Shown: piece by piece, positions 44,939 through 64,000 of the stretch
How the letters are laid out: every line of letters starts with the position of its first letter
How positions within the stretch are numbered: position 1 is the stretch's first letter
From: Escherichia phage vB_EcoM-Pr103Blw
Direction: 5' to 3' (one strand)
Sequence record: MW481326.1
Length of the DNA stretch: 64,000 bases
The notes under the pieces: generated by a model
Told to the model about the DNA's origin: nothing
The model's database searches: none
What the model saw: the letters and a program-made list of their open reading frames with translations, nothing else
Translations under genes and position numbers: made by a program

Positions 44939-45391
44939 ATGTTAAGTTCATTTTACATAGCACTGACTGAGATTCTATATAAAGAATTTGGTACAGATAC
45001 CATCTTTGACTCTAATGAGGCTATAAAAGCTCTCAGAAGTGGAAGTGACTACCTAAGTAAAAGCCCTATAGCAAACATTCGGTATTACTTGACCACAATG
45101 CGTAAAATGGGGCTACTGATGGCTGTAAGTCAGGGAACAAAAGACTGTGCTTCTCTATACCTAAACCAACTAAATAAAATGATGATAGAGAGCGACCCAC
45201 AACTATCAAGACTACTTGATAGTGTTGACACAACTAATAGGAATACAAGAACATCAAAACCAAAAGGTGAGTTCCTCCCTGATGCAAAATACTTTATTGA
45301 TGAACTAATGTTTGATACCATAGAAGATGCAGTTGAGTATTGCAAAAAGAATATTATTAAGTTGAAAAGAAAGAAAATTATTTGGGAATAA
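44939..45391 (+). CDS. tandem paralog B (unknown function)
   Basis: 150 aa; same motifs and equivalent SD context as paralog A. Confidence 0.5.
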   Translation: MLSSFYIALTEILYKEFGTDTIFDSNEAIKALRSGSDYLSKSPIANIRYYLTTMRKMGLLMAVSQGTKDCASLYLNQLNKMMIESDPQLSRLLDSVDTTNRNTRTSKPKGEFLPDAKYFIDELMFDTIEDAVEYCKKNIIKLKRKKIIWE

Positions 45392-45426
45392 AACCAAGAA
45401 AACTACCATTATCGAGAGAGAGAACT

Positions 45427-46308
45427 ATGAAAACGTCTATCCGTGTTACAGTTCATTCACCAACTAAAGGAACTCATGAAGAAGAGTTTAACATCATCCA
45501 ATTCCCTTCTGGTGAGATTGGTGGACACTTTTCGCCAGAGTTTGTTGATTTTACTGCTTATGCAGCATCATCCATCAACAATGTGATTATGATTGTAAAA
45601 GGTTATGATAAAGACACATTGTTTGCTGTGGCACTTGCTAAAGAAGCAATTGATGATTTAGTACCTCATAAGTTTGCTATGAAGACCATTATCTTTTACT
45701 ATTTGCCAAATGCACGTTATGACCGTCACATGTTTAAAGGTGATGCAGCAGCTTTGAAAGTGTTTGCACAACAGGTTAATGCAATGGGTTTTGATGCAGT
45801 CTGTGCAGTTGACCCTCACAGCTATGTACCAGATAACCTGTTTAACTGCTTCCAGAGTATCCCCCAAAAGGAGATTGCAGTCCACTATGCGAATGACCCA
45901 CTGGTTGATTACTTAGTAGCCCCAGATGCAGGTGCTGCTAAGAAGATTGCAGAAACTGCTAAAGAGGTGGATAAACCATATATCACAATGTCTAAAGTAC
46001 GTAACCTTAAGACTGGTGAAATTACTGGTATGCGAATCCTTGATGATGTTGATTTGGCAGATAAAACCGTCATGATTCTGGATGATATTTGTGATGGGGG
46101 ACGAACCTTCATAGAAGCAGCTAAACATCTTCGTGAAGCAGGTGCAAAACGTGTGGAACTCTATGTAACACATGGTATCTTCTCTAAAGATGTTGAAAAC
46201 CTTCTTGACAATGGCATTGACCACATCTACACTACAAACTCTTTAGGGGAAGCTAAAGACCGTGGCTTAACACATTATGGCCAAGTTACTGTAGCAAACC
46301 TTGATTAA
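45427..46308 (+). CDS. PRPP-synthetase-family pyrophosphokinase (Prs-like; candidate ADP-ribose pyrophosphokinase of a two-gene NAD+ reconstitution cassette)
   Basis: ATG 45427 (GAGAGAGAG SD); Prs-like VDPH, APDAGAAKK and PRPP-loop ILDDICDGGRT motifs; directly upstream of NAMPT-like gene. Confidence 0.8.
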   Translation: MKTSIRVTVHSPTKGTHEEEFNIIQFPSGEIGGHFSPEFVDFTAYAASSINNVIMIVKGYDKDTLFAVALAKEAIDDLVPHKFAMKTIIFYYLPNARYDRHMFKGDAAALKVFAQQVNAMGFDAVCAVDPHSYVPDNLFNCFQSIPQKEIAVHYANDPLVDYLVAPDAGAAKKIAETAKEVDKPYITMSKVRNLKTGEITGMRILDDVDLADKTVMILDDICDGGRTFIEAAKHLREAGAKRVELYVTHGIFSKDVENLLDNGIDHIYTTNSLGEAKDRGLTHYGQVTVANLD

Positions 46309-46317
46309 AACTTTATA

Positions 46318-46338
46318 GGGGCTTAAAAGCCCCATTTT
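46318..46338 (+). terminator. short intercistronic hairpin (weak terminator or processing site)
   Basis: GGGGCTT-aa-AAGCCCC then ATTTT; weak T-run. Confidence 0.35.
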
Positions 46339-46353
46339 GAGAGAGATTAAAAG

Positions 46354-48135
46354 ATGACTAAATCACTTTATGCAGTACCAGCAGGTTTAAACGCAGATGC
46401 TTACAAATCTGGTCACATCTACCAGTATCCTAGTGCAACAGAGTACTTGATGTTCAACCTGACACCACGTAGCGACAAATGGTTTAACAGCCCCTTAGCA
46501 ATTGATGGTGTAGTTGCTTTTGGTATTCAGCGTTTTGTTAAAGATTACCTGATAGACCACTGGAACGCCACCTTCTTCGAACGTGACAAAAAAGAAGCAA
46601 TTGACGAAATCTTAGAAGTCATGAACGGTGTTCTGGGTAAAGATGCTATTGGTCGAGAGCATTGGGAAGCACTTCACGACTTAGGTTATCTGCCAGTTGA
46701 AGTATACGCTGTAGAAGAAGGCACAGTTGTCCCTATGCGTGTTCCGATGATTGTTTTCCAGAACACTGTTTCAGGTTTCCATTGGGTAGCGGGGTATCTG
46801 GAAGATGCTTTCTCTGCTGAGATTTGGAAGGCTTGTACCATTGCAACTATTGCATTGCACTACAAACGTATCTGTAAGAAGTGGGCTGACCTTACTTGTG
46901 ACAACGACTTACATTTACCTTATCAGTGCCATGACTTCGCTATGCGTGGTATGTCTGGCTTTACTGATGACGCATTTAACGCTGTAGGTCACTTAACCAG
47001 CTTTAAAGGAACTGATAGCTTCCCTGCTGTGTATACAGCTAAACGTATCTATGGACAGTCCTACCCAATATCTGATATTGGTAGCTCTGTACCAGCCACT
47101 GAACACTCTGTAATGTGTGCAAACATTGCTTGGGAAGGTGGTAATGAGTTGATTGAAGAAGAAAGACGCTTTAAAGGTGAGTTACAAACCTTCCGTCGTT
47201 TCTTAACAGAAACTTACCCAACTGGTATTGCAAGTGTTGTTTCAGACACTTATAATTTCTGGAGAACTGTGTCAGAAATCTTACCAGCACTTCGTAAAGA
47301 GATTATGGAACGTGACGGCAAACTGGTAATTCGTCCTGACTCTGGAGACCCTGTACATATTGTCACAGGATACAAAGCAATCCATTTAGAGTGTGCTAAA
47401 AAGGCTTATTACGAACACCTAAGTAAGCTGGAAGCCAGCGACACAATGTTGAATGCTGTTCTGAACATGAAGCTTGAAAACATCAATTATGGTATTGCTG
47501 GATGGCTACTGTCAGAAGGCTACGAAATGGTTGTTGACAGAGAAGACTTTGAAGTTGCTGATACAGTGCTGTTGAAAAACGCTTATATGGTTGGTTCTGC
47601 AAATGTTGTAACACGTCCTGTAGCAGAGATTGATGGGGCTATTAAGACCTTGTATAACATCTTTGGAGGAACTATCAACTCTAAAGGGTTTAAGGTACTG
47701 GATGAGCACATTGGCCTTATCTATGGTGACTCTATCACGTTGGAACGCGCAAACGAAATCCTTAAGCGTTTGTATGAAATGGGTTTTGCAAGCTCTAACG
47801 TAGTGTTTGGTGTAGGTTCTTACACTTACCAGTACATGACTCGTGACACCTTTGCATTTGCTGTCAAAGCAACTCTTGCAAGCATTGGTGGTAAAGAGAT
47901 TATGCTTGCAAAAGACCCTAAAACAGATAGTGGTGTTAAGAAGTCTGCTTTTGGTGGTGTAGCCCCTATGTGGGATGGTGAGAATCTGAAAGCTGTAGAT
48001 GGCTATGGATTCCAGAGCTTTGCAGATGCACTTGAACATCCAGCTTGTGCTTTACATTTAGTCTTTAGCGACTCTGAGCAGTTCGGCTACACAACTCTTG
48101 GTGATATTCGAAATAATATTGACAAGCATCTTTAA
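46354..48135 (+). CDS. nadV: nicotinamide phosphoribosyltransferase-family protein (NAMPT/NadV-like; candidate nicotinamide ADP-ribose transferase)
   Basis: 593 aa; DAYKSGH near N-terminus, HDFAMRG, SFKGTD, SVPATEHS, VVSDTYNFW and RPDSGDP match conserved NAMPT segments. Confidence 0.9.
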   Translation: MTKSLYAVPAGLNADAYKSGHIYQYPSATEYLMFNLTPRSDKWFNSPLAIDGVVAFGIQRFVKDYLIDHWNATFFERDKKEAIDEILEVMNGVLGKDAIGREHWEALHDLGYLPVEVYAVEEGTVVPMRVPMIVFQNTVSGFHWVAGYLEDAFSAEIWKACTIATIALHYKRICKKWADLTCDNDLHLPYQCHDFAMRGMSGFTDDAFNAVGHLTSFKGTDSFPAVYTAKRIYGQSYPISDIGSSVPATEHSVMCANIAWEGGNELIEEERRFKGELQTFRRFLTETYPTGIASVVSDTYNFWRTVSEILPALRKEIMERDGKLVIRPDSGDPVHIVTGYKAIHLECAKKAYYEHLSKLEASDTMLNAVLNMKLENINYGIAGWLLSEGYEMVVDREDFEVADTVLLKNAYMVGSANVVTRPVAEIDGAIKTLYNIFGGTINSKGFKVLDEHIGLIYGDSITLERANEILKRLYEMGFASSNVVFGVGSYTYQYMTRDTFAFAVKATLASIGGKEIMLAKDPKTDSGVKKSAFGGVAPMWDGENLKAVDGYGFQSFADALEHPACALHLVFSDSEQFGYTTLGDIRNNIDKHL

Positions 48136-52716: not shown

Positions 52717-53265
52717 ATGAAGAAATTGATTCTAGGCTTGTGCTTAATGTTTACAGCACACTTATCTTATGCAGTTGACTGCCCAGAGCTAACAATTAGC
52801 CAAAAAGTAAACATGTTAAAAGCTTACCAGTATGGTGAGAATAATATGGGTAAAGGTTGGGGTATTACTCTAGCAGCTATAGCCTTACAAGAGTCAGAGT
52901 TAGGTCTGAAGGTAGAGAATAAAAAGACCCACGACTATGGTATTTTCCAGAATCACTTGAAGACTGTTGTAAAGCGTAACAAAATTAGTCCTAATGTGGC
53001 TAAAAAGAAACTCTTAAAAGATTTTGACTATGCAGCAAAAGAGACGCATAAAGAGCTTGAGTTTTGGACTAAGGTACATGGTCACCCGAAGTCAAAGAAG
53101 ACTTTACAAAAAGTTTTAGCATCATATAATGCTGGGTATTCGTACAAAATCCCTAAAGCTAAGAAATACTCTCAAGATGTCTATAACAATATGAAAGTTA
53201 TTGCTCAATGTGAATTTGCAACAAACATTTCTAAGGTAAATCATGAAAAAATTAAGAAAGTCTGA
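52717..53265 (+). CDS. secreted lytic transglycosylase-like protein (SLT/GH23-like)
   Basis: Signal peptide MKKLILGLCLMFTAHLSYA; AIALQESELG...DYGIFQ resembles SLT catalytic Glu-Ser region. Confidence 0.5.
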   Translation: MKKLILGLCLMFTAHLSYAVDCPELTISQKVNMLKAYQYGENNMGKGWGITLAAIALQESELGLKVENKKTHDYGIFQNHLKTVVKRNKISPNVAKKKLLKDFDYAAKETHKELEFWTKVHGHPKSKKTLQKVLASYNAGYSYKIPKAKKYSQDVYNNMKVIAQCEFATNISKVNHEKIKKV

Positions 53266-53938
53266 TGAAGTCCTGTGCCACGCTTATGACTTGCATCCTC
53301 ATGAGTTAGGTCTTGATTCCTGTGTATGGACTCCAGAACAGTGCAGGGATTTTGAAGACACTGCAAGAGAAGTTGTATGTTCACTTGAAGAGTTCCACAC
53401 ATCAGAACCAATTGTGAACGTTGTGGATAAAGAAACTGGACAAGCTATAGGTGTAAGTCGTGATAGTTTAGTCATAGTCAATAAAGACCTTGTAGAAAAA
53501 GGTAACCTCATCTTAGCAGATATTGATGGTGTTCTTACAAATTTTAATCACGAAGACTGCTCAACGGAATTGACTGATGGGTCATTCTCACAGTACACTA
53601 ATCTTCTTGACTCTGTAAGAGCAAAACCAACATATGTTTTTAGTATTATTGATGCAATTGCTAATCATGCTGCCATTGGACTCTTGACAGCGAGAGGTGA
53701 ATCTCAGAGAATACCTACTGAGATGTTTTTAAGGCATAACATAGAACATGATTACATGCTTTTTATGCGTGGTTTTGGAACTAACTCTATAAGTGCAGAA
53801 AGTTTAAAAGTGAGGATGATTCAGTCTTGCATTCTTCCTTATTTTAATATAGTATGCTTTATAGAAGATACAGAGAAGAATGTTCAGAAGGTTAACAGAA
53901 TCCTTCCACACATTAAAACCATGTTAGTTAAACATTGA
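53243..53938 (+). CDS. HAD-family phosphatase-like protein
   Basis: 231 aa; ILADIDGVLTNF matches HAD motif I (DxDGVL). Confidence 0.35.
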   Translation: MKKLRKSDEVLCHAYDLHPHELGLDSCVWTPEQCRDFEDTAREVVCSLEEFHTSEPIVNVVDKETGQAIGVSRDSLVIVNKDLVEKGNLILADIDGVLTNFNHEDCSTELTDGSFSQYTNLLDSVRAKPTYVFSIIDAIANHAAIGLLTARGESQRIPTEMFLRHNIEHDYMLFMRGFGTNSISAESLKVRMIQSCILPYFNIVCFIEDTEKNVQKVNRILPHIKTMLVKH

Positions 53939-54414: not shown

Positions 54415-54426
54415 GGTTAAGATACA

Positions 54427-54447
54427 GGCTCCTTCGGGAGCCTTTTT
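54427..54447 (+). terminator. rho-independent terminator
   Basis: GGCTCC-ttcg-GGAGCC followed by TTTTTCATTT. Confidence 0.6.
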
Positions 54448-54466: not shown

Positions 54467-54814
54467 ATGACATTTAAAGAGTTCTGTCAAGCTACTTTCA
54501 TAATTGTTTTCTTAGTTGGGGCAGGTGTCTGGGGAGGATACTCTTACAGAGACTACCAAGTTGCTGAAGCTGAGTTAAGCAATGAGAAACTAATAAGTGT
54601 TGCTAAAGATGCTTATCAGGAAGGTTTAGCCACACTCAGCACCAATTACAAAAATGATTTGAAAGATGTGCTTGCTAAGAATAAGCACACAAAAGAGGTA
54701 CTAACATATGAAAAAACTAAGCCAGAGTTTTATAATGTTTGTGTTACTGATAATTATGTCAGGGTGTTCAACGAACAAAGTGAACAGTACATTCAAAAAC
54801 TACCAAGTAAGTGA
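54467..54814 (+). CDS. putative i-spanin (Rz-like)
   Basis: 115 aa; N-terminal TM (ATFIIVFLVGAGVWGGY) then coiled-coil periplasmic domain; o-spanin-like gene embedded at its 3' end. Confidence 0.5.
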   Translation: MTFKEFCQATFIIVFLVGAGVWGGYSYRDYQVAEAELSNEKLISVAKDAYQEGLATLSTNYKNDLKDVLAKNKHTKEVLTYEKTKPEFYNVCVTDNYVRVFNEQSEQYIQKLPSK

Positions 54815-54977
54815 GAGTGACAAGTACACTCAAGAAGAGTCAAGATTCACTGTCAAAGGTAATACTGGTAGTGATGTGGCAGCAGCCCTTGAGTTTTATC
54901 GTGATGGTTTTTACCAGTGCACAATCAAAGCTAATAACCTTATTGATATGATTTTATTAGGAAATAAACAGCAATGA
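54708..54977 (+). CDS. putative o-spanin (Rz1-like lipoprotein)
   Basis: 89 aa; lipoprotein signal with lipobox (LLIIMSGC); starts inside i-spanin gene in another frame. Confidence 0.5.
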   Translation: MKKLSQSFIMFVLLIIMSGCSTNKVNSTFKNYQVSESDKYTQEESRFTVKGNTGSDVAAALEFYRDGFYQCTIKANNLIDMILLGNKQQ

Positions 54978-56271: not shown

Positions 56272-57057
56272 ATGGGTATTGTAAAAATCATCAATGGTGA
56301 TATCTTTGCTGCATTTGATAAAGGTAAGTTTGACATCATTGGTCATGGTTGTAACTGCATGAACCTAATGGGTGCAGGTATCGCTGACAAGATTTCTAAA
56401 CTTTACCCAAAAGCATATGAGACCGATACAGAAGTTTATCTATATGCAGGTGGTATAGGACACAAACCCTGTGAAAATTTACTGGGTAATTTCTCTGTAG
56501 CACGTTTAAAACAAGGTCGTATAGCCAACCTTTACACTCAGCTTAAGACTGGTAAAGATGCCCGATACAGTGCTTTAGAGTTATCTTTGAAACAGCTTAA
56601 CAGATACTGTGAAGTTAATCAGTTGAAGAAAGTTGGTTTACCTATGATTGGCGCAGGTATCGGTGGGTTGGACCCTCAAGCCGTCACAGTTATCATCAAT
56701 CAGGTGATGAAGAGTGTAGATGTTTATCTATATGTCTATGAAGGAGAGATGTACCACAAGTTACGCTCAGGTTGGAAGAACTACTGTGAACCAGAATACT
56801 TTGCAGGTGTAGTTGTGTTCACGGATAATGCAGTTACCCTCTTCAGACGAAGAAAAGGTAAGATACATCAAAGTAACCCTCCGGTTGAGAAGATGTCTCT
56901 AAGTAACGCTCTAGTTACCCACCTGTCGAAGAGCAATCACAGGATAGCCGTAACATTTGGCAGTGATGCAGATACATATATTTATGCAAGAACTGATGAG
57001 GATATTGAGACGGTCTTCTCTTCACCGGAAGTTACCTTCTTAGACGCAAAGAACTAA
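56272..57057 (+). CDS. macro-domain protein (ADP-ribose binding/processing) with C-terminal extension
   Basis: N-terminus NGDIFAAFDKGKFDIIGHGCNCMNLMGAGIA and later LPMIGAGIGGL match macro-domain Gly-rich ADP-ribose-binding loops. Confidence 0.6.
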   Translation: MGIVKIINGDIFAAFDKGKFDIIGHGCNCMNLMGAGIADKISKLYPKAYETDTEVYLYAGGIGHKPCENLLGNFSVARLKQGRIANLYTQLKTGKDARYSALELSLKQLNRYCEVNQLKKVGLPMIGAGIGGLDPQAVTVIINQVMKSVDVYLYVYEGEMYHKLRSGWKNYCEPEYFAGVVVFTDNAVTLFRRRKGKIHQSNPPVEKMSLSNALVTHLSKSNHRIAVTFGSDADTYIYARTDEDIETVFSSPEVTFLDAKN

Positions 57058-57131
57058 GAAACTCTGTATAATATTCACAATAGACTAAGCCTTTCTTATC
57101 TGGTAAATTTTTCAGGTAAGGAGGGCTTTTT

Positions 57132-57320
57132 CATTTCAGGATTGTGCAGGTATATATCTATAGAGAAATCTGTAGAGAGAATTTTGAACTCCAAAGAGAA
57201 AATTCATTTTCAAACTGTGCAGGTAATCTCCAAAGAGCTTTTTCATTTTCAAAACGTGCAGACCCCGCTCAGGTCGGGCAAGAAAAATCATTTTAGAATT
57301 GTGCAGGTAGGTTTTTATAG
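57132..57320. repeat. array of four direct repeats (consensus TTCATTTTCAAAAcTGTGCAGGTA)
   Basis: Copies near 57132, 57205, 57243, 57288; non-coding (track ORFs on both strands here only translate the repeat). Confidence 0.6.
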
Positions 57321-57330
57321 AGAGCCAGAC

Positions 57331-57365
57331 CAACCCCTCTCCCCCTCTTACTCCCCCTCTCCCCA
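57331..57365 (-). other. G-quadruplex-capable tract on - strand (C-rich on + strand)
   Basis: + strand CCCCTCTCCCCCTCTTACTCCCCCTCTCCCC gives four G-runs of >=4 with short loops on - strand; unusual in AT-rich genome. Confidence 0.45.
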
Positions 57366-57484
57366 AAAGTCAAGAGAAAAATTTGTAGCGGATTGAAAAA
57401 TAATTCTTGATTTGTGTTCTGTTTTGTGGTAGTCGTGTGCGCACGTTTCATTACAGTTTTCCAAAAATATTTTTAAAATTTTTC

Positions 57485-57578
57485 TTGACTCTTTGAACGG
57501 GGTTATCTAGTATTTGCATCAACGGGGAGGGAATGACCTTTCCCACTAAGTAAAGTCCTTAAATTAGGAGATTCAAAA
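57485..57578 (+). promoter_or_regulatory. early promoter plus conserved leader cassette, copy 1
   Basis: TTGACT-17 nt-TAGTAT, then leader TCAACGGGGAGGGAATGACCTTTCCCACTAAGTAAAGTCCTTAAATTAGGAGATTCAAAA-ATG. Confidence 0.65.
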
Positions 57579-58724: not shown

Positions 58725-59050
58725 TGACTGGTATCACTGCAATCATTGCCATTTTCGCGCTATATAAGGCATATAAAGCCTATAATCTAGCAAATAAGGC
58801 AATCACACAGCAGGTTAGCAATAACCTTGTAGAGAGCTTTCTAGGGCGTTTAAGTGATGAGCAAATAAAGCGGCTAGAGATGAGCTTCAGATATAAAGCG
58901 AAAACCTATCAAATAAGTGACATCTTCAAAGATGATTTTCAGTTAGTTGATGATTATAATTCTCTGATAAATGCTTTAAATATCAGTGACTTAAAAGACT
59001 ACTACGCTGTAATTGTTCAAGAATTGAGCAAACGAAAACAAAACTGTTGA
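58718..59050 (+). CDS. early membrane-anchored protein, unknown function
   Basis: 110 aa; N-terminal hydrophobic segment (LMTGITAIIAIFALY). Confidence 0.5.
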   Translation: MLMTGITAIIAIFALYKAYKAYNLANKAITQQVSNNLVESFLGRLSDEQIKRLEMSFRYKAKTYQISDIFKDDFQLVDDYNSLINALNISDLKDYYAVIVQELSKRKQNC

Positions 59051-59138
59051 CACTGGTTTTTAGATAGATTAAATTACACATCAACGGGGAGGGAATGACC
59101 TTCCCCACTAAATAAAGTCCTAAACTGGAGATTCTAAA
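59047..59138 (+). promoter_or_regulatory. early promoter plus conserved leader cassette, copy 2
   Basis: TTGACA-17 nt-TAAATT then leader with GGGGAGGGAATGACCTTCCCC hairpin and AGGAGA... wait-free RBS GGAGATTCTAAA-ATG. Confidence 0.65.
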
Positions 59139-59495: not shown

Positions 59496-59900
59496 ATGGC
59501 TATTAATAACCGTGAATTATCAATCTTAAAAGCACGTTTGACCGTCAACCGGATTAATGTTCTGACATCATCAGCGCCTGATGAGACATTGCACAACATT
59601 ATCGGAAAGATTCAAAGTGTTATCTTAGACGTTGAAAACGTAAAAAACTCATTGGCTGACGTTGCAGCAGGTATCACGCTAGACGGTGCGCAATATGAAA
59701 TGATTGATATGTTAGGCAAATCAAAGGTTATGAATAAAGAGTTAGACCTAAAAATGTTTCGATTTGCCGTGAAAGTATGGCTATCTGTCGAGTATGATGC
59801 TAATTTTGCAATCGCTGATTTCTTCGCCACTTGGTTACAACGTAATTTGACAAATCACGATTTTCGTGGCATCTGCGATGCAATTTATGCAGAACTCTAA
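59496..59900 (+). CDS. early protein, unknown function
   Basis: 134 aa. Confidence 0.6.
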   Translation: MAINNRELSILKARLTVNRINVLTSSAPDETLHNIIGKIQSVILDVENVKNSLADVAAGITLDGAQYEMIDMLGKSKVMNKELDLKMFRFAVKVWLSVEYDANFAIADFFATWLQRNLTNHDFRGICDAIYAEL

Positions 59901-59909
59901 AAAATTTTG

Positions 59910-60003
59910 TTGACACTGGTTTTTAGATAGATTAAATTACACATCAACGGGGAGGGAATGACCTTCCCCACTAAATAAAGTCCTTAAACTAGGAGATTCA
60001 AAA
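59910..60003 (+). promoter_or_regulatory. early promoter plus conserved leader cassette, copy 3
   Basis: About 95 bp nearly identical to copy 2 (TTGACACTGGTTTTTAGATAGATTAAATTACACATCAACGGGG...). Confidence 0.65.
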
Positions 60004-60900: not shown

Positions 60901-61134
60901 ATGCTTACAACCATTTATCTCATCCTTTCCATTTGTAACGGCCATTCATGCGATTTTAAAGGGCTTGAGGAGTTCACAGGAAGTAAAGAAAATGCCATTC
61001 AAGTTTGTCAGATAGCAAGGCAAGACTATCCCGCCAGTGATGACATACAATGCTACTTTAAGACAGAAGATGAAGAAGGCATTTATTTTGATAGTGTTGA
61101 CGGTCAATATGAAATTATCATTGAAAAAGACTAG
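60901..61134 (+). CDS. early protein, unknown function
   Basis: 77 aa; GGGGGC SD. Confidence 0.5.
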   Translation: MLTTIYLILSICNGHSCDFKGLEEFTGSKENAIQVCQIARQDYPASDDIQCYFKTEDEEGIYFDSVDGQYEIIIEKD

Positions 61135-61225
61135 ACAAGCCTGATAAAAGCTTGTAGAGTGTCAATCAACGGGGAGGGAATAACCTTCCCCACTAAGTAA
61201 AGTCCTTAAACTAGGAGATTCTAAA
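61132..61225 (+). promoter_or_regulatory. early promoter plus conserved leader cassette, copy 4
   Basis: TAGACA-17 nt-TAGAGT overlapping upstream stop, then leader with GGGGAGGGAATAACCTTCCCC hairpin. Confidence 0.55.
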
Positions 61226-61628: not shown

Positions 61629-61696
61629 TGTTCGAGGGGGTTTATCTAAAAGGGATTCACTTAAAAGATTCTTTATAGATAAGCTTAAAAAATTGC

Positions 61697-61789
61697 TTGC
61701 AATCAACTATCAAAACAAGTAAATTACTAATCAACGGGGAGGCGATAACCTTCCCCACTAAATAAAGTCCTTAAACTAGGAGATTCAAA
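61697..61789 (+). promoter_or_regulatory. early promoter plus conserved leader cassette, copy 5
   Basis: TTGCAA-17 nt-TAAATT then leader (hairpin GGGGAGGCGATAACCTTCCCC). Confidence 0.6.
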
Positions 61790-62382: not shown

Positions 62383-62646
62383 ATGGAAAACGTAGAATTA
62401 ACCACACTTTTACAAATTGCAACCGACAAAGAAGATGTAGCATTATTCCACCGTATCGAAAGTGATTTGTTCAATGGTGAAATCATTAAAGAATCTTACG
62501 AAGTTGTCGGATTCAAAGATGGTAAAGCATTTGGCTTTTTTGACCTCGACAAAAGCAAAGCGGTTACAATGTACGATGTTCTATCTTGTGAAATTCTGAC
62601 AAAATACAACGAAAAAAGGCTTGCAACCTACGCCAATATGCAGTAA
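62383..62646 (+). CDS. early protein, unknown function
   Basis: 87 aa. Confidence 0.6.
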   Translation: MENVELTTLLQIATDKEDVALFHRIESDLFNGEIIKESYEVVGFKDGKAFGFFDLDKSKAVTMYDVLSCEILTKYNEKRLATYANMQ

Positions 62647-62713
62647 ATTACTAATCAACGGGGAGGGAATGACCTTCCCACTAAACAAAGTCCTAAACTG
62701 GAGAATCTAAATT
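62621..62713 (+). promoter_or_regulatory. early promoter plus conserved leader cassette, copy 7
   Basis: TTGCAA-17 nt-TAAATT then leader with GGGGAGGGAATGACCTTCCC hairpin. Confidence 0.6.
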
Positions 62714-63039: not shown

Positions 63040-64000
63040 TATACAATCCCTTTCCTTTCTAGAATCTTATCAGACCTTAAAAAGCAATAACTCTATAGTC
63101 TACTCTATAACCTCTTATCAAATCAACTTAAATATAAGCCCATAACCCGAAAGGGAAGGGCAACCACTAAAATGCTCTATAAAGCTCTATAACAGCCTTA
63201 TCAACCTAACTTAAGCAATCATATTAACCCACTCTAAAAAGCCCTTTATAGAGCTTCCTAGAGCCTTAAAAGAATCTTATAAGGGTACAAGCTTATAAGC
63301 TGGCTAGTATCTTGTGAATACCTAAACAACCCCTTGATAGTCACTAAAAAGTATGTTATAGGGGCTATAGAGTTACTTCAAAGTTACGTAAAAAGAGCTA
63401 TAAAGTTACGTAAATGCTAGCCCCCTTAACATTTTCTTAACAATTTCTTAACAAACCCTACATAGTTATGCTTGTTAGAGACTTGTTAGCCCCTTGTTAA
63501 ATCTCTGTTAAGACCACGTAAAAGCCTTGTAAGAGTCTTTGACATATCCTTAAAAGCCTCTGTAAAGCCCTATAAAGAGCTATCCATACAGTTGAGGGGT
63601 AAATACTAGGGAGAGCCTTAAAAGAGCTTACAAGGGGCTGTATAGGGCTTTTAAGAGGTATGTTTAAGAGTTCACTAAGAAAGGAAAGGGAACGATAAGA
63701 AAAGAGATAGTGACCATGTTAATAGCTTGTTAAAAAGATTAAACACTTGTTAGAAACTTGTTAATTATCTTAATAAAATAACTCTTTAAAATTAACTTGT
63801 TAGCTCTTATTAGTCATCTGTTAAGACTCTGTAAAGACTATTCAGCACTTGTTAGAAAACTGTTACATCCTTGTTAGTTCTGTTAAGAGACTGTTAAGAC
63901 CTTTGAAGAGTTGTTAAGAGCTTGTGAGAACTGTTAAGAGATTGTTAAGGATATTTTAAAATTTTGCAAAGTACTTGTAAGGGAGTTGTTAAGGGCTACC
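63040..64000. repeat. non-coding region dense in short degenerate repeats (CTATARAG and yTGTTARr families)
   Basis: No ORF of 60 aa or more; more than 20 copies of TGTTAAG/TGTTAGA-like heptamers, from about 63840 spaced every 10-12 bp; also TTACGTAA x2 and CTATAAAG/CTATAGAG copies. Confidence 0.6.

What the first reader, a model, noticed from the sequence alone, without database searches (positions are those of the whole stretch)
56272..57057. Macro-domain protein at the end of the late block
The N-terminal ~150 aa carry macro-domain hallmarks (GDI...DIIGHGCNCMNLMGAGIA...LPMIGAGIGG), fused to an uncharacterised ~110-aa C-terminal region. Macro domains bind or hydrolyse ADP-ribose derivatives: they remove ADP-ribosyl marks from protein or DNA and deacetylate O-acetyl-ADP-ribose. 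In a phage that also carries a candidate ADP-ribose-consuming NAD+ reconstitution cassette 8 kb upstream, it could reverse host ADP-ribosylation-based immunity (DarT-like DNA ADP-ribosylation or ART toxins) or process ADP-ribose derivatives from SIR2/TIR effectors.
Basis: partly seen in the sequence, partly recalled or inferred. Interest (0 to 1): 0.65.

Follow-up and report, generated by a model that had tools for sequence, protein, structure and literature searches.

The report
Phage ADP-ribose-removing enzyme with orphan tail
This Felix O1-like phage gene encodes a real macro-domain (ADP-ribose-processing) enzyme, related to two recently described phage counter-defence enzymes and fused to a fast-evolving extra domain of unknown fold, so it is an expected kind of anti-immunity gene in a new two-domain form.

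Summary
The ORF at 56272..57057 (+, 261 aa) is real. Residues 1-157 are a genuine macro domain: Pfam Macro scores above its threshold, and the predicted structure is closest to TARG1, DarG and Poa1p. The window is a Felixounavirus.

The gene is not in a late block. It closes an accessory operon downstream of rIIA/rIIB and polynucleotide kinase, and a strong terminator follows it.

The macro domain belongs to a phage Poa1p-like clade with the motifs HGCNC, MGAGIA, NLYTQ and GAGIGG. This clade contains two characterised counter-defence enzymes:
- T4 Tk.4 ("AdfM"), needed against DarTG2.
- Adpp, an ADPR-1''-phosphate phosphatase that feeds the NARP1 NAD+ pathway against aRES.

Overall similarity, an 8-residue active-site loop and a weakly supported tree put the window protein nearer Tk.4. 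I therefore favour removal of ADP-ribose from DarT2-modified DNA (about 0.45).

The Adpp role (about 0.28) stays open. The phage carries NARP1 8 kb upstream, and this is the only macro gene in the window.

The DarG/TARG1 catalytic lysine is replaced by an invariant glutamine, as it is in Tk.4.

Residues 158-261 form a small beta-rich domain found only in Ounavirinae-like phages. It matches no known structure and evolves much faster than the enzyme domain. No function was tested directly.

The parts
56272..57057 (+). Complete CDS (261 aa plus stop) of the two-domain macro protein
   Evidence: ORF list. The ATG abuts the upstream TAA and follows a GGGAGAG SD-like run. Orthologues at 90-99% identity are annotated as phosphatase, macro domain protein or O-acetyl-ADP-ribose deacetylase in Felixounavirus genomes.
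56272..56742 (+). Macro domain (aa 1-157), Poa1p-like / Tk.4-type
   Evidence: Pfam PF01661 at 29.6 bits, above the cut-off of 22. DarG is the only NCBIfam and PADLOC hit, covering the macro part only. Foldseek top hits are TARG1, DarG macro and Poa1p. 35% identity to T4 Tk.4.
56341..56385 (+). GHGCNC...MGAGIA (aa 24-38): His25 and Asn28 plus the first Gly-rich ADP-ribose-binding loop
   Evidence: H25, N28, M33, G34, A35, G36 and A38 are invariant in 19 two-domain homologues. N28 aligns with the DarG active-site Asn, named N22 in T. aquaticus DarG2 and N23 in PhiKZ AdfM by PMC13309987. H25 aligns with Adpp H24, for which an H24A mutant was built. The paper reports that mutations in Adpp abolish anti-aRES activity.
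56527..56541 (+). NLYTQ (aa 86-90): strand carrying Gln90 at the position of the DarG K80 / TARG1 K84 catalytic lysine, followed by an 8-residue loop
   Evidence: Alignments. Q is invariant in the family and present in T4 Tk.4. DarG, PhiKZ gp104 and TARG1 have K.
56641..56673 (+). PMIGAGIGGLD (aa 124-134): second Gly-rich (diphosphate-binding) loop
   Evidence: P124, G127, A128, G129, I130, G132, L133 and D134 are invariant. The segment aligns with PPLGAGNGG of DarG and PRIGCGLDR of TARG1.
56743..57054 (+). C-terminal domain (aa 158-261): linker helix, six beta strands and a terminal helix; lineage-restricted orphan domain
57087..57138 (+). Terminator-like hairpin (17-bp stem) plus T-run that ends the transcription unit
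   Evidence: sequence.
45382..48135 (+). Context: NARP1 pair (Adps-like, 308 aa; Namat-like, 593 aa), the possible consumer of ADP-ribose under the rival explanation
   Evidence: Pfam Pribosyltran/Pribosyl_synth and NAPRTase/NAMPT_N. The pair is conserved in 254 Felixounavirus records. NARP1 was defined in Bas63, a Felixounavirus.

Best explanation
The gene encodes a counter-defence enzyme of the phage Poa1p-like (T4 Tk.4-type) macro-domain clade.

Shown here: the N-terminal 157 residues form an ADP-ribose-binding macro fold with both Gly-rich loops intact. The candidate active-site residues His25, Asn28, Gln90 and Asp134 are invariant across the 19 aligned two-domain homologues.

Inferred: like its closest characterised relative, T4 Tk.4/AdfM, it most likely removes ADP-ribose that DarT2-type toxins attach to thymidines in single-stranded phage DNA. 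That would restore replication and packaging in hosts that carry DarTG2. The chemistry cannot be the DarG/TARG1 lysine mechanism, because that lysine is a glutamine here. His25 and Asn28 are the likely catalytic pair.

Inferred more weakly: the C-terminal roughly 105-residue beta-rich domain is a non-catalytic accessory module. It evolves fast and has no conserved charge or motif. It probably mediates an interaction with a host protein such as the toxin, or with the substrate. This would parallel the second, toxin-binding domain of DarG, but the two domains are not related.

The gene is the last of an accessory operon and is translationally coupled to the ORF before it.
For: Macro identity:
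- Pfam hit, PHROG 335 at E = 1e-112 and PDB sequence hits.
- AF2 model with pLDDT 85, with Foldseek top hits TARG1 and the Taq and Mtb DarG macro domains.
- DarG is the only hit in NCBIfam (E = 4.4e-12) and in PADLOC (E = 1.4e-12), stronger than for T4 Tk.4 itself.

Link to T4 Tk.4:
- It is the closest characterised protein, at 35% identity, E = 1e-23 and 81 bits.
- A tk.4 knockout makes T4 sensitive to DarTG2 (bioRxiv 10.1101/2025.11.20.689424).
- Features shared with Tk.4: HGCNC, LYTQ, an 8-residue loop after the Gln, and GAGIGG. All 17 distinct NARP1-adjacent Adpp proteins instead have a 12-15-residue loop.
- In NJ bootstraps the window+T4 clade excludes the core Adpp group in 97 of 200 replicates. 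A window+Gary clade excludes T4 in only 17 of 200.
- T4 has no NARP1 (my own knowledge, not checked here), so Tk.4-type enzymes act independently of that pathway.

Precedent: enzymatic removal of DarT2 marks by a phage macro domain is shown biochemically for PhiKZ gp104 (PMC13309987).

Conservation and context:
- The gene is conserved in all 254 Felixounavirus-like records. Synteny holds in relatives whose macro domains are about 40% identical and in Erwinia phage phiEa104.
- Operon end and translational coupling.
Against: - No experiment exists for any Ounavirinae protein.
- The evidence for T4 Tk.4 is genetic only. Its substrate has not been shown biochemically.
- The lysine at the position of the active-site residue K80 of T. 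aquaticus DarG2 and K78 of PhiKZ AdfM (named in PMC13309987) is an invariant Gln here. That this lysine is essential in DarG and TARG1 is my own knowledge. PhiKZ AdfM scores only 25 bits against this protein.
- The same clade contains Adpp, a proven ADPR-1''-phosphate phosphatase. A related Adpp-group protein from phage JG004 scores 74 bits, almost as high as Tk.4.
- The tree support is weak, at about 49%.
- The phage carries NARP1, which would benefit from an Adpp activity.
- Nothing shows that the C-terminal domain binds DarT. It has no similarity to the DarG C-terminal domain and no acidic DNA-mimic character.
Confidence: 0.45

Rival explanations
1. Adpp-like role. The macro domain is an ADP-ribose-1''-phosphate phosphatase. 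RES-domain defence proteins (aRES) split NAD+ into nicotinamide and ADPR-1''-phosphate, which NARP1 cannot use. The enzyme would remove the phosphate so that the phage's own NARP1 (Adps plus Namat, 8 kb upstream) can rebuild NAD+.
For: - It belongs to the same Poa1p-like clade as Adpp: 52 bits to the biochemically validated Vibrio phage Gary enzyme, and 63-74 bits to other NARP1-adjacent macro proteins.
- Adpp His24, for which an H24A mutant was built, is conserved as His25.
- The phage carries NARP1.
- This is the only macro domain in the 64-kb window.
- Both loci are found in the same 254 Felixounavirus-like records, and both are present in phiEa104.
- PHROG and RefSeq annotations call it a phosphatase.
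- The published screen looked only two genes either side of NARP1, so it would have missed this gene. No Escherichia or Salmonella phage appears in its table.
Against: - The gene is not in the NARP1 operon. About 8.1 kb, roughly 17 ORFs and terminator-like hairpins separate them.
- It lacks the 12-15-residue aromatic loop present in all 17 distinct NARP1-adjacent Adpp sequences examined. It has the Tk.4-type 8-residue loop and GAGIGG.
- It is closer to T4 Tk.4, whose phage has no NARP1.
- phiEa104 has Gln at the position of the His for which the H24A mutant was made, yet keeps NARP1.
Confidence: 0.28
2. It reverses ADP-ribosylation of another macromolecule. Candidates are mRNA or rRNA modified by ART toxins such as CmdT, phosphate-end ADP-ribosylated RNA or DNA, or host or phage proteins modified by ART toxins.
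For: - TARG1 is the best PDB match by both sequence and fold. It acts on phosphate-linked RNA and DNA ADP-ribosylation (PMC11833690), and on protein ADP-ribosylation (my own knowledge).
- An extra domain would suit recognition of a macromolecular substrate.
Against: - No characterised member of this specific phage clade has such an activity.
- The TARG1 catalytic residues Lys84 and Asp125 (residue numbers from my own knowledge) are not conserved; they align with Q90 and G131.
- No ART gene was noticed next to the gene.
Confidence: 0.1
3. Housekeeping clean-up of ADP-ribose-1''-phosphate or cyclic phosphate produced by RNA repair or 2'-phosphotransferase reactions, working with the nearby polynucleotide kinase.
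For: - Poa1p performs this step in yeast tRNA splicing, as cited.
- A polynucleotide kinase gene lies 2.3 kb upstream, at 53243-53938.
- One homologue (P0030) is fused to a cyclic-phosphate-processing receiver domain, PF20274.
Against: - The T4-type kinase/ligase repair pathway makes no 2'-phosphate junction (established knowledge).
- No Tpt1-like gene was identified here.
- The kinase and macro genes are separated by a terminator-like hairpin at 54426-54443.
Confidence: 0.05
4. A non-catalytic ADP-ribose binder. It would act as a sponge for ADPR-derived immune signals such as His-ADPR or gcADPR, or as a reader that docks the C-terminal domain onto ADP-ribosylated targets.
For: - The canonical catalytic lysine is absent.
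- Macro domains can bind His-ADPR, as the Thoeris II ThsA macro domain does.
Against: - Invariant His25, Asn28, Gln90 and Asp134 look like a catalytic set.
- Adpp, from the same clade, is an enzyme.
- A tk.4 knockout sensitises T4 to a DNA-modifying system that uses no signal molecule.
Confidence: 0.05

Closest known systems
T4 Tk.4 ('AdfM', anti-DarT factor macrodomain; bioRxiv 10.1101/2025.11.20.689424)
   Same: - Same Poa1p-like macro clade, at 35% identity (E = 1e-23) across the whole macro domain.
- Same motifs: HGCNC, MGxG[IV]A, NLYTQ and IGAGIG.
- Same 8-residue loop after the Gln.
- An orphan phage gene among accessory genes.
   Different: - Tk.4 is a single 155-aa domain. The window protein carries an extra roughly 105-aa C-terminal domain with no counterpart among the T4 neighbours tk.1-3, vs and vs.1.
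- The anti-DarTG2 phenotype is known only for T4.
Adpp of NARP1-AP (Vibrio phage Gary gp137; bioRxiv 10.64898/2026.01.28.702374)
   Same: - Poa1p-like macro domain with a conserved His (Adpp H24 aligns with H25 here).
- Gln in place of the DarG lysine.
- Encoded by a phage that also has NARP1.
   Different: - 27% identity and 52 bits.
- Adpp sits inside the Adps-Adpp-Namat operon, whereas this gene lies 8 kb away.
- Adpp proteins have a 12-15-residue loop after Y[GT]Q, and 12 of the 17 examined have G[AC]GL[AG]G.
- Adpp has no C-terminal domain.
DarG antitoxin macro domain (T. aquaticus / M. tuberculosis; PDB 5M31, 5M3E, 5M3I) and PhiKZ gp104 AdfM (PMC13309987)
   Same: - Macro fold. DarG is the only NCBIfam and PADLOC hit.
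- The active-site Asn is conserved.
- Both Gly-rich loops are conserved.
- Like this protein, DarG is a macro domain followed by a second domain.
   Different: - The catalytic Lys (FPTK motif) is replaced by Gln.
- Only 25-38 bits of pairwise similarity.
- The DarG C-terminal DarT-binding domain is not matched.
- No DarT partner gene.
Human TARG1/OARD1 and yeast Poa1p
   Same: - TARG1 is the best solved-structure match by sequence (E = 3.7e-11 with the family profile) and by fold (TM 0.8 on the target).
- The Poa1p N-terminal HxxN...GxGIA region matches.
   Different: - TARG1 Lys84 and Asp125 align with Q90 and G131.
- These are eukaryotic single-domain proteins with other physiological roles.

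Membership tests
Macro domain superfamily (Pfam PF01661) | Profile match above the curated threshold | tested here: met
   29.6 bits against a cut-off of 22, E = 7.3e-7, aa 25-141 covering profile positions 2-117 of 118.
Macro domain superfamily (Pfam PF01661) | Three-layer alpha/beta/alpha macro fold | tested here: met
   AF2 pLDDT 85. 236 Foldseek PDB hits at E <= 1e-3; the 50 listed are macro-domain structures or engineered macro-domain scaffolds, with target TM-scores of 0.67-0.84.
Macro domain superfamily (Pfam PF01661) | Two Gly-rich ADP-ribose/diphosphate-binding loops | tested here: met
   MGAGIA (aa 33-38) and IGAGIGG (aa 126-132) are invariant or nearly so, and align with the loops of DarG and TARG1.
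DarG / TARG1 (ALC1-like) ADP-ribosylglycohydrolases | Catalytic lysine after the conserved Thr (DarG K80, TARG1 K84) | tested here: not met
   Gln90 occupies this position in the window protein, in all Ounavirinae homologues examined, and in every Tk.4 relative tabulated.
DarG / TARG1 (ALC1-like) ADP-ribosylglycohydrolases | Active-site Asn (DarG N22) | tested here: met
   Asn28 aligns with it and is invariant in the 19-sequence family alignment.
DarG antitoxin (NCBIfam NF048014) | Full-length match including the C-terminal DarT-binding domain, and an adjacent darT gene | tested here: not met
   45.9 bits against a cut-off of 250. Only profile positions 4-153 of 338 are matched. PADLOC DarG matches positions 18-146 of 329. 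No toxin gene among the neighbours.
T4 Tk.4-type phage macro domain (T4 'AdfM') | Significant full-length similarity plus the HGCNC / LYTQ / 8-residue loop / GAGI[GA]G signature | tested here: met
   35% identity, E = 1e-23. Signature table.
T4 Tk.4-type phage macro domain (T4 'AdfM') | Required for phage growth on DarTG2 hosts; removes thymidine-linked ADP-ribose | not testable with these tools
   Only genetic evidence for T4 exists. Nothing is available for Felixounavirus.
Adpp (NARP1-AP phosphatase) | Poa1p-like macro domain with the conserved His (H24) | tested here: met
   His25 aligns with Adpp H24.
Adpp (NARP1-AP phosphatase) | Encoded within or next to the Adps-Namat operon (within two genes) | tested here: not met
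   Namat ends at 48135 and the macro gene starts at 56272. rIIA, rIIB, the kinase, spanins and terminator-like hairpins lie between them.
Adpp (NARP1-AP phosphatase) | Extended 12-15-residue loop after Y[GT]Q, seen in all NARP1-adjacent members examined (my empirical criterion, not a published one) | tested here: not met
   The loop is 8 residues (LKTGKDAR) here and in all 12 Ounavirinae sequences, against 12-15 residues in 17 distinct Adpp sequences.
Adpp (NARP1-AP phosphatase) | ADPR-1''-phosphate phosphatase activity | not testable with these tools
   Needs an enzyme assay.

The most novel reading that the evidence does not exclude
The protein is a convergent, phage-built analogue of a complete antitoxin. 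A Tk.4-type macro enzyme is fused to a fast-evolving orphan domain that directly binds and blocks a host NAD+-using toxin, either DarT2 or a RES or other ART effector. In this reading the macro domain is also bifunctional. It would erase DNA ADP-ribosylation and dephosphorylate ADPR-1''-phosphate for the phage's NARP1. One gene would then defeat both DarTG2 and aRES, using a lysine-independent catalytic mechanism (His/Asn/Gln) not yet described for DNA de-ADP-ribosylation.
Probability: 0.12. Interest if true: 0.7.

Novelty: new variant of a known kind. Interest (0 to 1): 0.42.

Why it matters
- NARP1 was discovered in a Felixounavirus, and these phages are widely used in biocontrol and therapy.
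- If this core gene is their anti-DarTG2 factor, it predicts host range on DarTG2-carrying E. coli, Salmonella and Shigella.
- If it is instead an unlinked Adpp, NARP1-AP is much commoner than the published 15%, because that screen looked only two genes away from NARP1.
- The comparison also shows that two proteins both named AdfM (T4 Tk.4 and PhiKZ gp104) belong to different macro clades. The T4-type clade lacks the lysine regarded as catalytic in DarG. This poses a clear mechanistic question that can be answered with a handful of point mutants.
- The orphan C-terminal domain is a candidate new host-interaction module.

Tried and rejected
C-terminal domain:
2. Pfam on the C-terminal domain alone: only sub-threshold noise (NAC, PH; E > 0.1).
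3. BFVD fold search: only its own family (SUSP2).
4. Profile search of 1.84 billion representatives: no relatives outside the phage family. The large multi-stretch hits look repetitive and were not pursued.
5. A counterpart encoded as a separate gene next to T4 tk.4 (tk.1-3, vs, vs.1, regB and others): no similarity.
6. Charge signature (acidic DNA mimic or basic DNA binder): none is consistent across homologues.
7. Test of the family's C-terminal profile against phiEa104 gp016: no match, so the tail is either replaced or has diverged beyond recognition.

Other checks:
8. A second macro gene nearer NARP1 in the window: none.
9. Rfam scan of the downstream gap and the repeated leaders: no family.
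10. Literature search for any study of the Felixounavirus or Bas63 macro gene: none found. The PhageMaP Bas63 screen does not mention it.
11. The NJ phylogeny separates the DarG-like clade from the Poa1p-like clade. Within the Poa1p-like clade, support is too weak to assign a substrate.
Full report
**Observation.** The window is a Felix O1-like phage (genus Felixounavirus). The 3.5 kb around the finding is 91-95.5% identical to Escherichia phage HY02 and many relatives.

- The ORF at 56272..57057 (+) encodes 261 aa and contains the quoted motifs.
- Its ATG directly follows the TAA of the preceding ORF and is preceded by GGGAGAG, so the gene is translationally coupled within an operon.
- A 17-bp terminator-like hairpin with a T-run follows at 57087-57128.
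- Orthologues in GenBank are annotated as phosphatase, macro domain protein or O-acetyl-ADP-ribose deacetylase.

**Genomic position.** The 'late block' label does not hold.

- By comparison with HY02, the structural genes occupy about 1-16 kb of the window.
- A minus-strand replication block follows, containing thymidylate synthase, ligase and DNA polymerase.
- The long plus-strand run from about 26 kb then carries primase/helicase, exonuclease, Nrd genes, a Prs-like/NAMPT-like pair, rIIA, rIIB, polynucleotide kinase, spanins and small ORFs, ending with the macro gene.
- Downstream lie small genes, six of which are preceded by a repeated sigma-70-like promoter and conserved leader.
- The expression class of the macro gene is unknown.

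**The N-terminal domain is a genuine macro domain.**

- Pfam Macro scores above its gathering threshold.
- PHROG 335 matches at E = 1e-112.
- PDB sequence searches find TARG1, coronavirus Mac1, the DarG macro domains and Poa1p. With a family profile, TARG1 reaches E = 3.7e-11 and M. tuberculosis DarG 3.5e-9.
- An AlphaFold2 model built on 19 homologues has pLDDT 85 and pTM 0.85.
- Its best Foldseek matches are TARG1, T. aquaticus and M. tuberculosis DarG, and Poa1p.
- DarG is the only NCBIfam hit and the only PADLOC hit. In both cases only the macro half of the profile is matched.
- Both Gly-rich loops are conserved.

**Which macro family it belongs to.** The literature held here describes three phage macro proteins with demonstrated counter-defence roles.

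1. [quoted passage not shown] It removes DarT2 marks from DNA in vitro (PMC13309987).
2. T4 Tk.4 is also named AdfM. Its knockout sensitises T4 to DarTG2 (bioRxiv 10.1101/2025.11.20.689424).
3. Adpp is a Poa1p-like macro protein encoded inside some NARP1 operons. It dephosphorylates ADPR-1''-phosphate made by aRES, so that NARP1 can rebuild NAD+ (bioRxiv 10.64898/2026.01.28.702374).

Pairwise scores for the window's macro domain:

| Protein | Bits |
|---|---|
| T4 Tk.4 | 81 |
| NARP1-adjacent macro, JG004 | 74 |
| NARP1-adjacent macro, phiPsa374 | 66 |
| NARP1-adjacent macro, phiAbaA1 | 63 |
| Gary Adpp (biochemically validated) | 52 |
| TARG1 | 47 |
| DarG (Taq, Mtb) | 35-38 |
| PhiKZ gp104 | 25 |

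T4 Tk.4 itself scores 74-83 bits against Adpp proteins but only 20 bits against PhiKZ gp104. So Tk.4, Adpp and the window protein form one Poa1p-like clade. The two proteins called AdfM are not close relatives.

**Active site.**

- The lysine at the position named as the active-site residue K80 of T. aquaticus DarG2 and K78 of PhiKZ AdfM is a glutamine (Q90, motif NLYTQ). This holds in the window protein, in all Ounavirinae homologues examined, in T4 Tk.4 and in all Adpp sequences. TARG1 K84 aligns at the same position, by my own residue numbering.
- The DarG Asn is kept as N28.
- His25 aligns with Adpp His24. An H24A mutant was built, and the paper reports that mutating Adpp abolishes its anti-aRES activity.
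- Membership of the DarG/TARG1 catalytic type therefore fails. Membership of the Poa1p-like phage clade is met.

**Tk.4-type or Adpp-type?**

- All 17 distinct NARP1-adjacent proteins examined have a 12-15-residue loop after Y[GT]Q that contains aromatic residues. Twelve of them have G[AC]GL[AG]G in the second loop.
- T4 Tk.4, its close relatives and all 12 Ounavirinae sequences have an 8-residue loop and GAGI[GA]G.
- In a neighbour-joining tree the Ounavirinae group nests in the Tk.4-type radiation, while most Adpp sequences branch outside it.
- Bootstrap support is weak. The window+T4 clade excludes the core Adpp group in 97 of 200 replicates. A window+Gary clade excludes T4 in 17 of 200.
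- This favours a Tk.4-like role but does not fix the substrate.

**The NARP1 link.**

- The pair at 45382-46308 and 46354-48135 has Prs-like and NAMPT-like domains.
- It is 90-97% identical across most of the genus.
- NARP1 was defined with genes 79-80 of Bas63, a Felixounavirus.
- The macro gene is the only macro domain in the window.
- The macro region and NARP1 each match 254 Felixounavirus-like records, and both are present in Erwinia phage phiEa104.
- However, they are 8.1 kb and about 17 ORFs apart, with terminator-like hairpins between them.
- The published Adpp screen looked only two genes either side of NARP1, and lists no Escherichia or Salmonella phage. An unlinked Adpp would therefore have been missed. 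This keeps the rival explanation alive.

**The C-terminal domain.**

- Residues 158-261 fold, with moderate confidence (pLDDT 78 alone, 77-89 in context), into a linker helix, six beta strands and a terminal helix.
- BFVD returns only a family member.
- Pfam returns only sub-threshold noise.
- A profile search of 1.84 billion representative proteins returns 11 hits, of which the five strongest non-repetitive ones belong to the same family.
- The two relatives whose contigs were inspected sit in the same rIIA-rIIB...kinase...macro synteny in Ounavirinae-like contigs.
- The domain evolves much faster than the enzyme domain. Macro versus C-terminal identity is 81% vs 52%, 53% vs 19% and 43% vs 13%.
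- In phiEa104 the equivalent roughly 100 residues are no longer recognisable.
- There is no conserved charge bias, and only P174, G179 and Y236 are conserved.
- It does not resemble the genes next to T4 tk.4.
- I read it as a non-catalytic interaction module under rapid change. Any partner, whether DarT2, another toxin or DNA, is speculation.

**Conclusion.**

- *Shown:* a real, conserved, two-domain phage protein. Its N-terminal half is a Poa1p-like/Tk.4-type macro domain with intact ADP-ribose-binding loops. Its C-terminal half is a lineage-restricted orphan domain.
- *Inferred:* it is a counter-defence enzyme acting on an ADP-ribose derivative (about 0.85). The most likely role is reversal of DarT2-type DNA ADP-ribosylation, as for T4 Tk.4 (about 0.45). 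ADPR-1''-phosphate dephosphorylation for NARP1 is the main rival (about 0.28).
- The kind of system is already known from 2025-2026 work. What is new here:
  - the fused architecture;
  - the placement of Felixounavirus in this picture;
  - the observation that the T4-type clade lacks the DarG lysine.

Noticed in passing
window 57128-57365: The 520-bp gap after the macro gene holds four copies of an approximately 23-nt motif (TTTCATTTYARRAYTGTGCAGGT), starting near 57128, 57204, 57243 and 57288. A 35-nt polypyrimidine tract follows at 57331-57365 (CCAACCCCTCTCCCCCTCTTACTCCCCCTCTCCCC). There is no Rfam match. It could be a set of regulator-binding sites or a small RNA locus.
   Followed up: partly
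window 57474-57562, 59036-59124, 59899-59987, 61121-61209, 61686-61774, 62610-62698: Six copies of an approximately 89-nt cassette. Each has a sigma-70-like promoter (TTGACx, 17 nt, TAnnnT), then a conserved leader hairpin (CAACGGGGAGGGAATGACCTTCCCCACTAAATAAAGTCCTTAA) and a Shine-Dalgarno sequence. Each copy sits in front of a small ORF, giving a series of near-identical monocistronic units downstream of the macro gene.
   Followed up: partly
window 63717-63958: Four imperfect direct repeats rich in TGTTAA/TTGTTA (47-nt units) near the window end. Their function is unknown.
   Followed up: no
window 45382-48135: The Prs-like and NAMPT-like pair is the NARP1 (Adps plus Namat) NAD+ reconstitution operon first described in the Felixounavirus Bas63. 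It matches 254 Felixounavirus-like records at 90-97% identity in most.
   Followed up: yes
L002 4923-5390 (T4 tk.4) and L003 12518-13006 (PhiKZ gp104): Two proteins independently named AdfM are not close relatives, scoring only 20 bits pairwise. PhiKZ gp104 is DarG-like and has the lysine. T4 Tk.4 is Poa1p/Adpp-like and has Gln at that position. The naming hides a mechanistic difference.
   Followed up: yes
L007 8483-9265 (Erwinia phage phiEa104 gp016): This Ounavirinae orthologue has Gln instead of His25 (IAQGCNC). Its C-terminal roughly 100 residues do not match the C-terminal profile of the Felixounavirus family, although overall length and synteny are kept.
   Followed up: partly
protein P0030 (metagenomic, 339 aa): A Tk.4-type macro domain fused to a cREC_REC cyclic-phosphate-processing receiver domain (PF20274). 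This hints that some clade members act in RNA-end or ADPR cyclic phosphate processing.
   Followed up: no
window 54467-54977: An Rz-like i-spanin ORF (54467-54814) overlaps an out-of-frame ORF (54708-54977) whose product starts with a lipoprotein-like signal (…IIMSGCSTNK). This looks like an overlapping Rz/Rz1-type spanin pair, and it lies in the same transcription unit as the macro gene.
   Followed up: no
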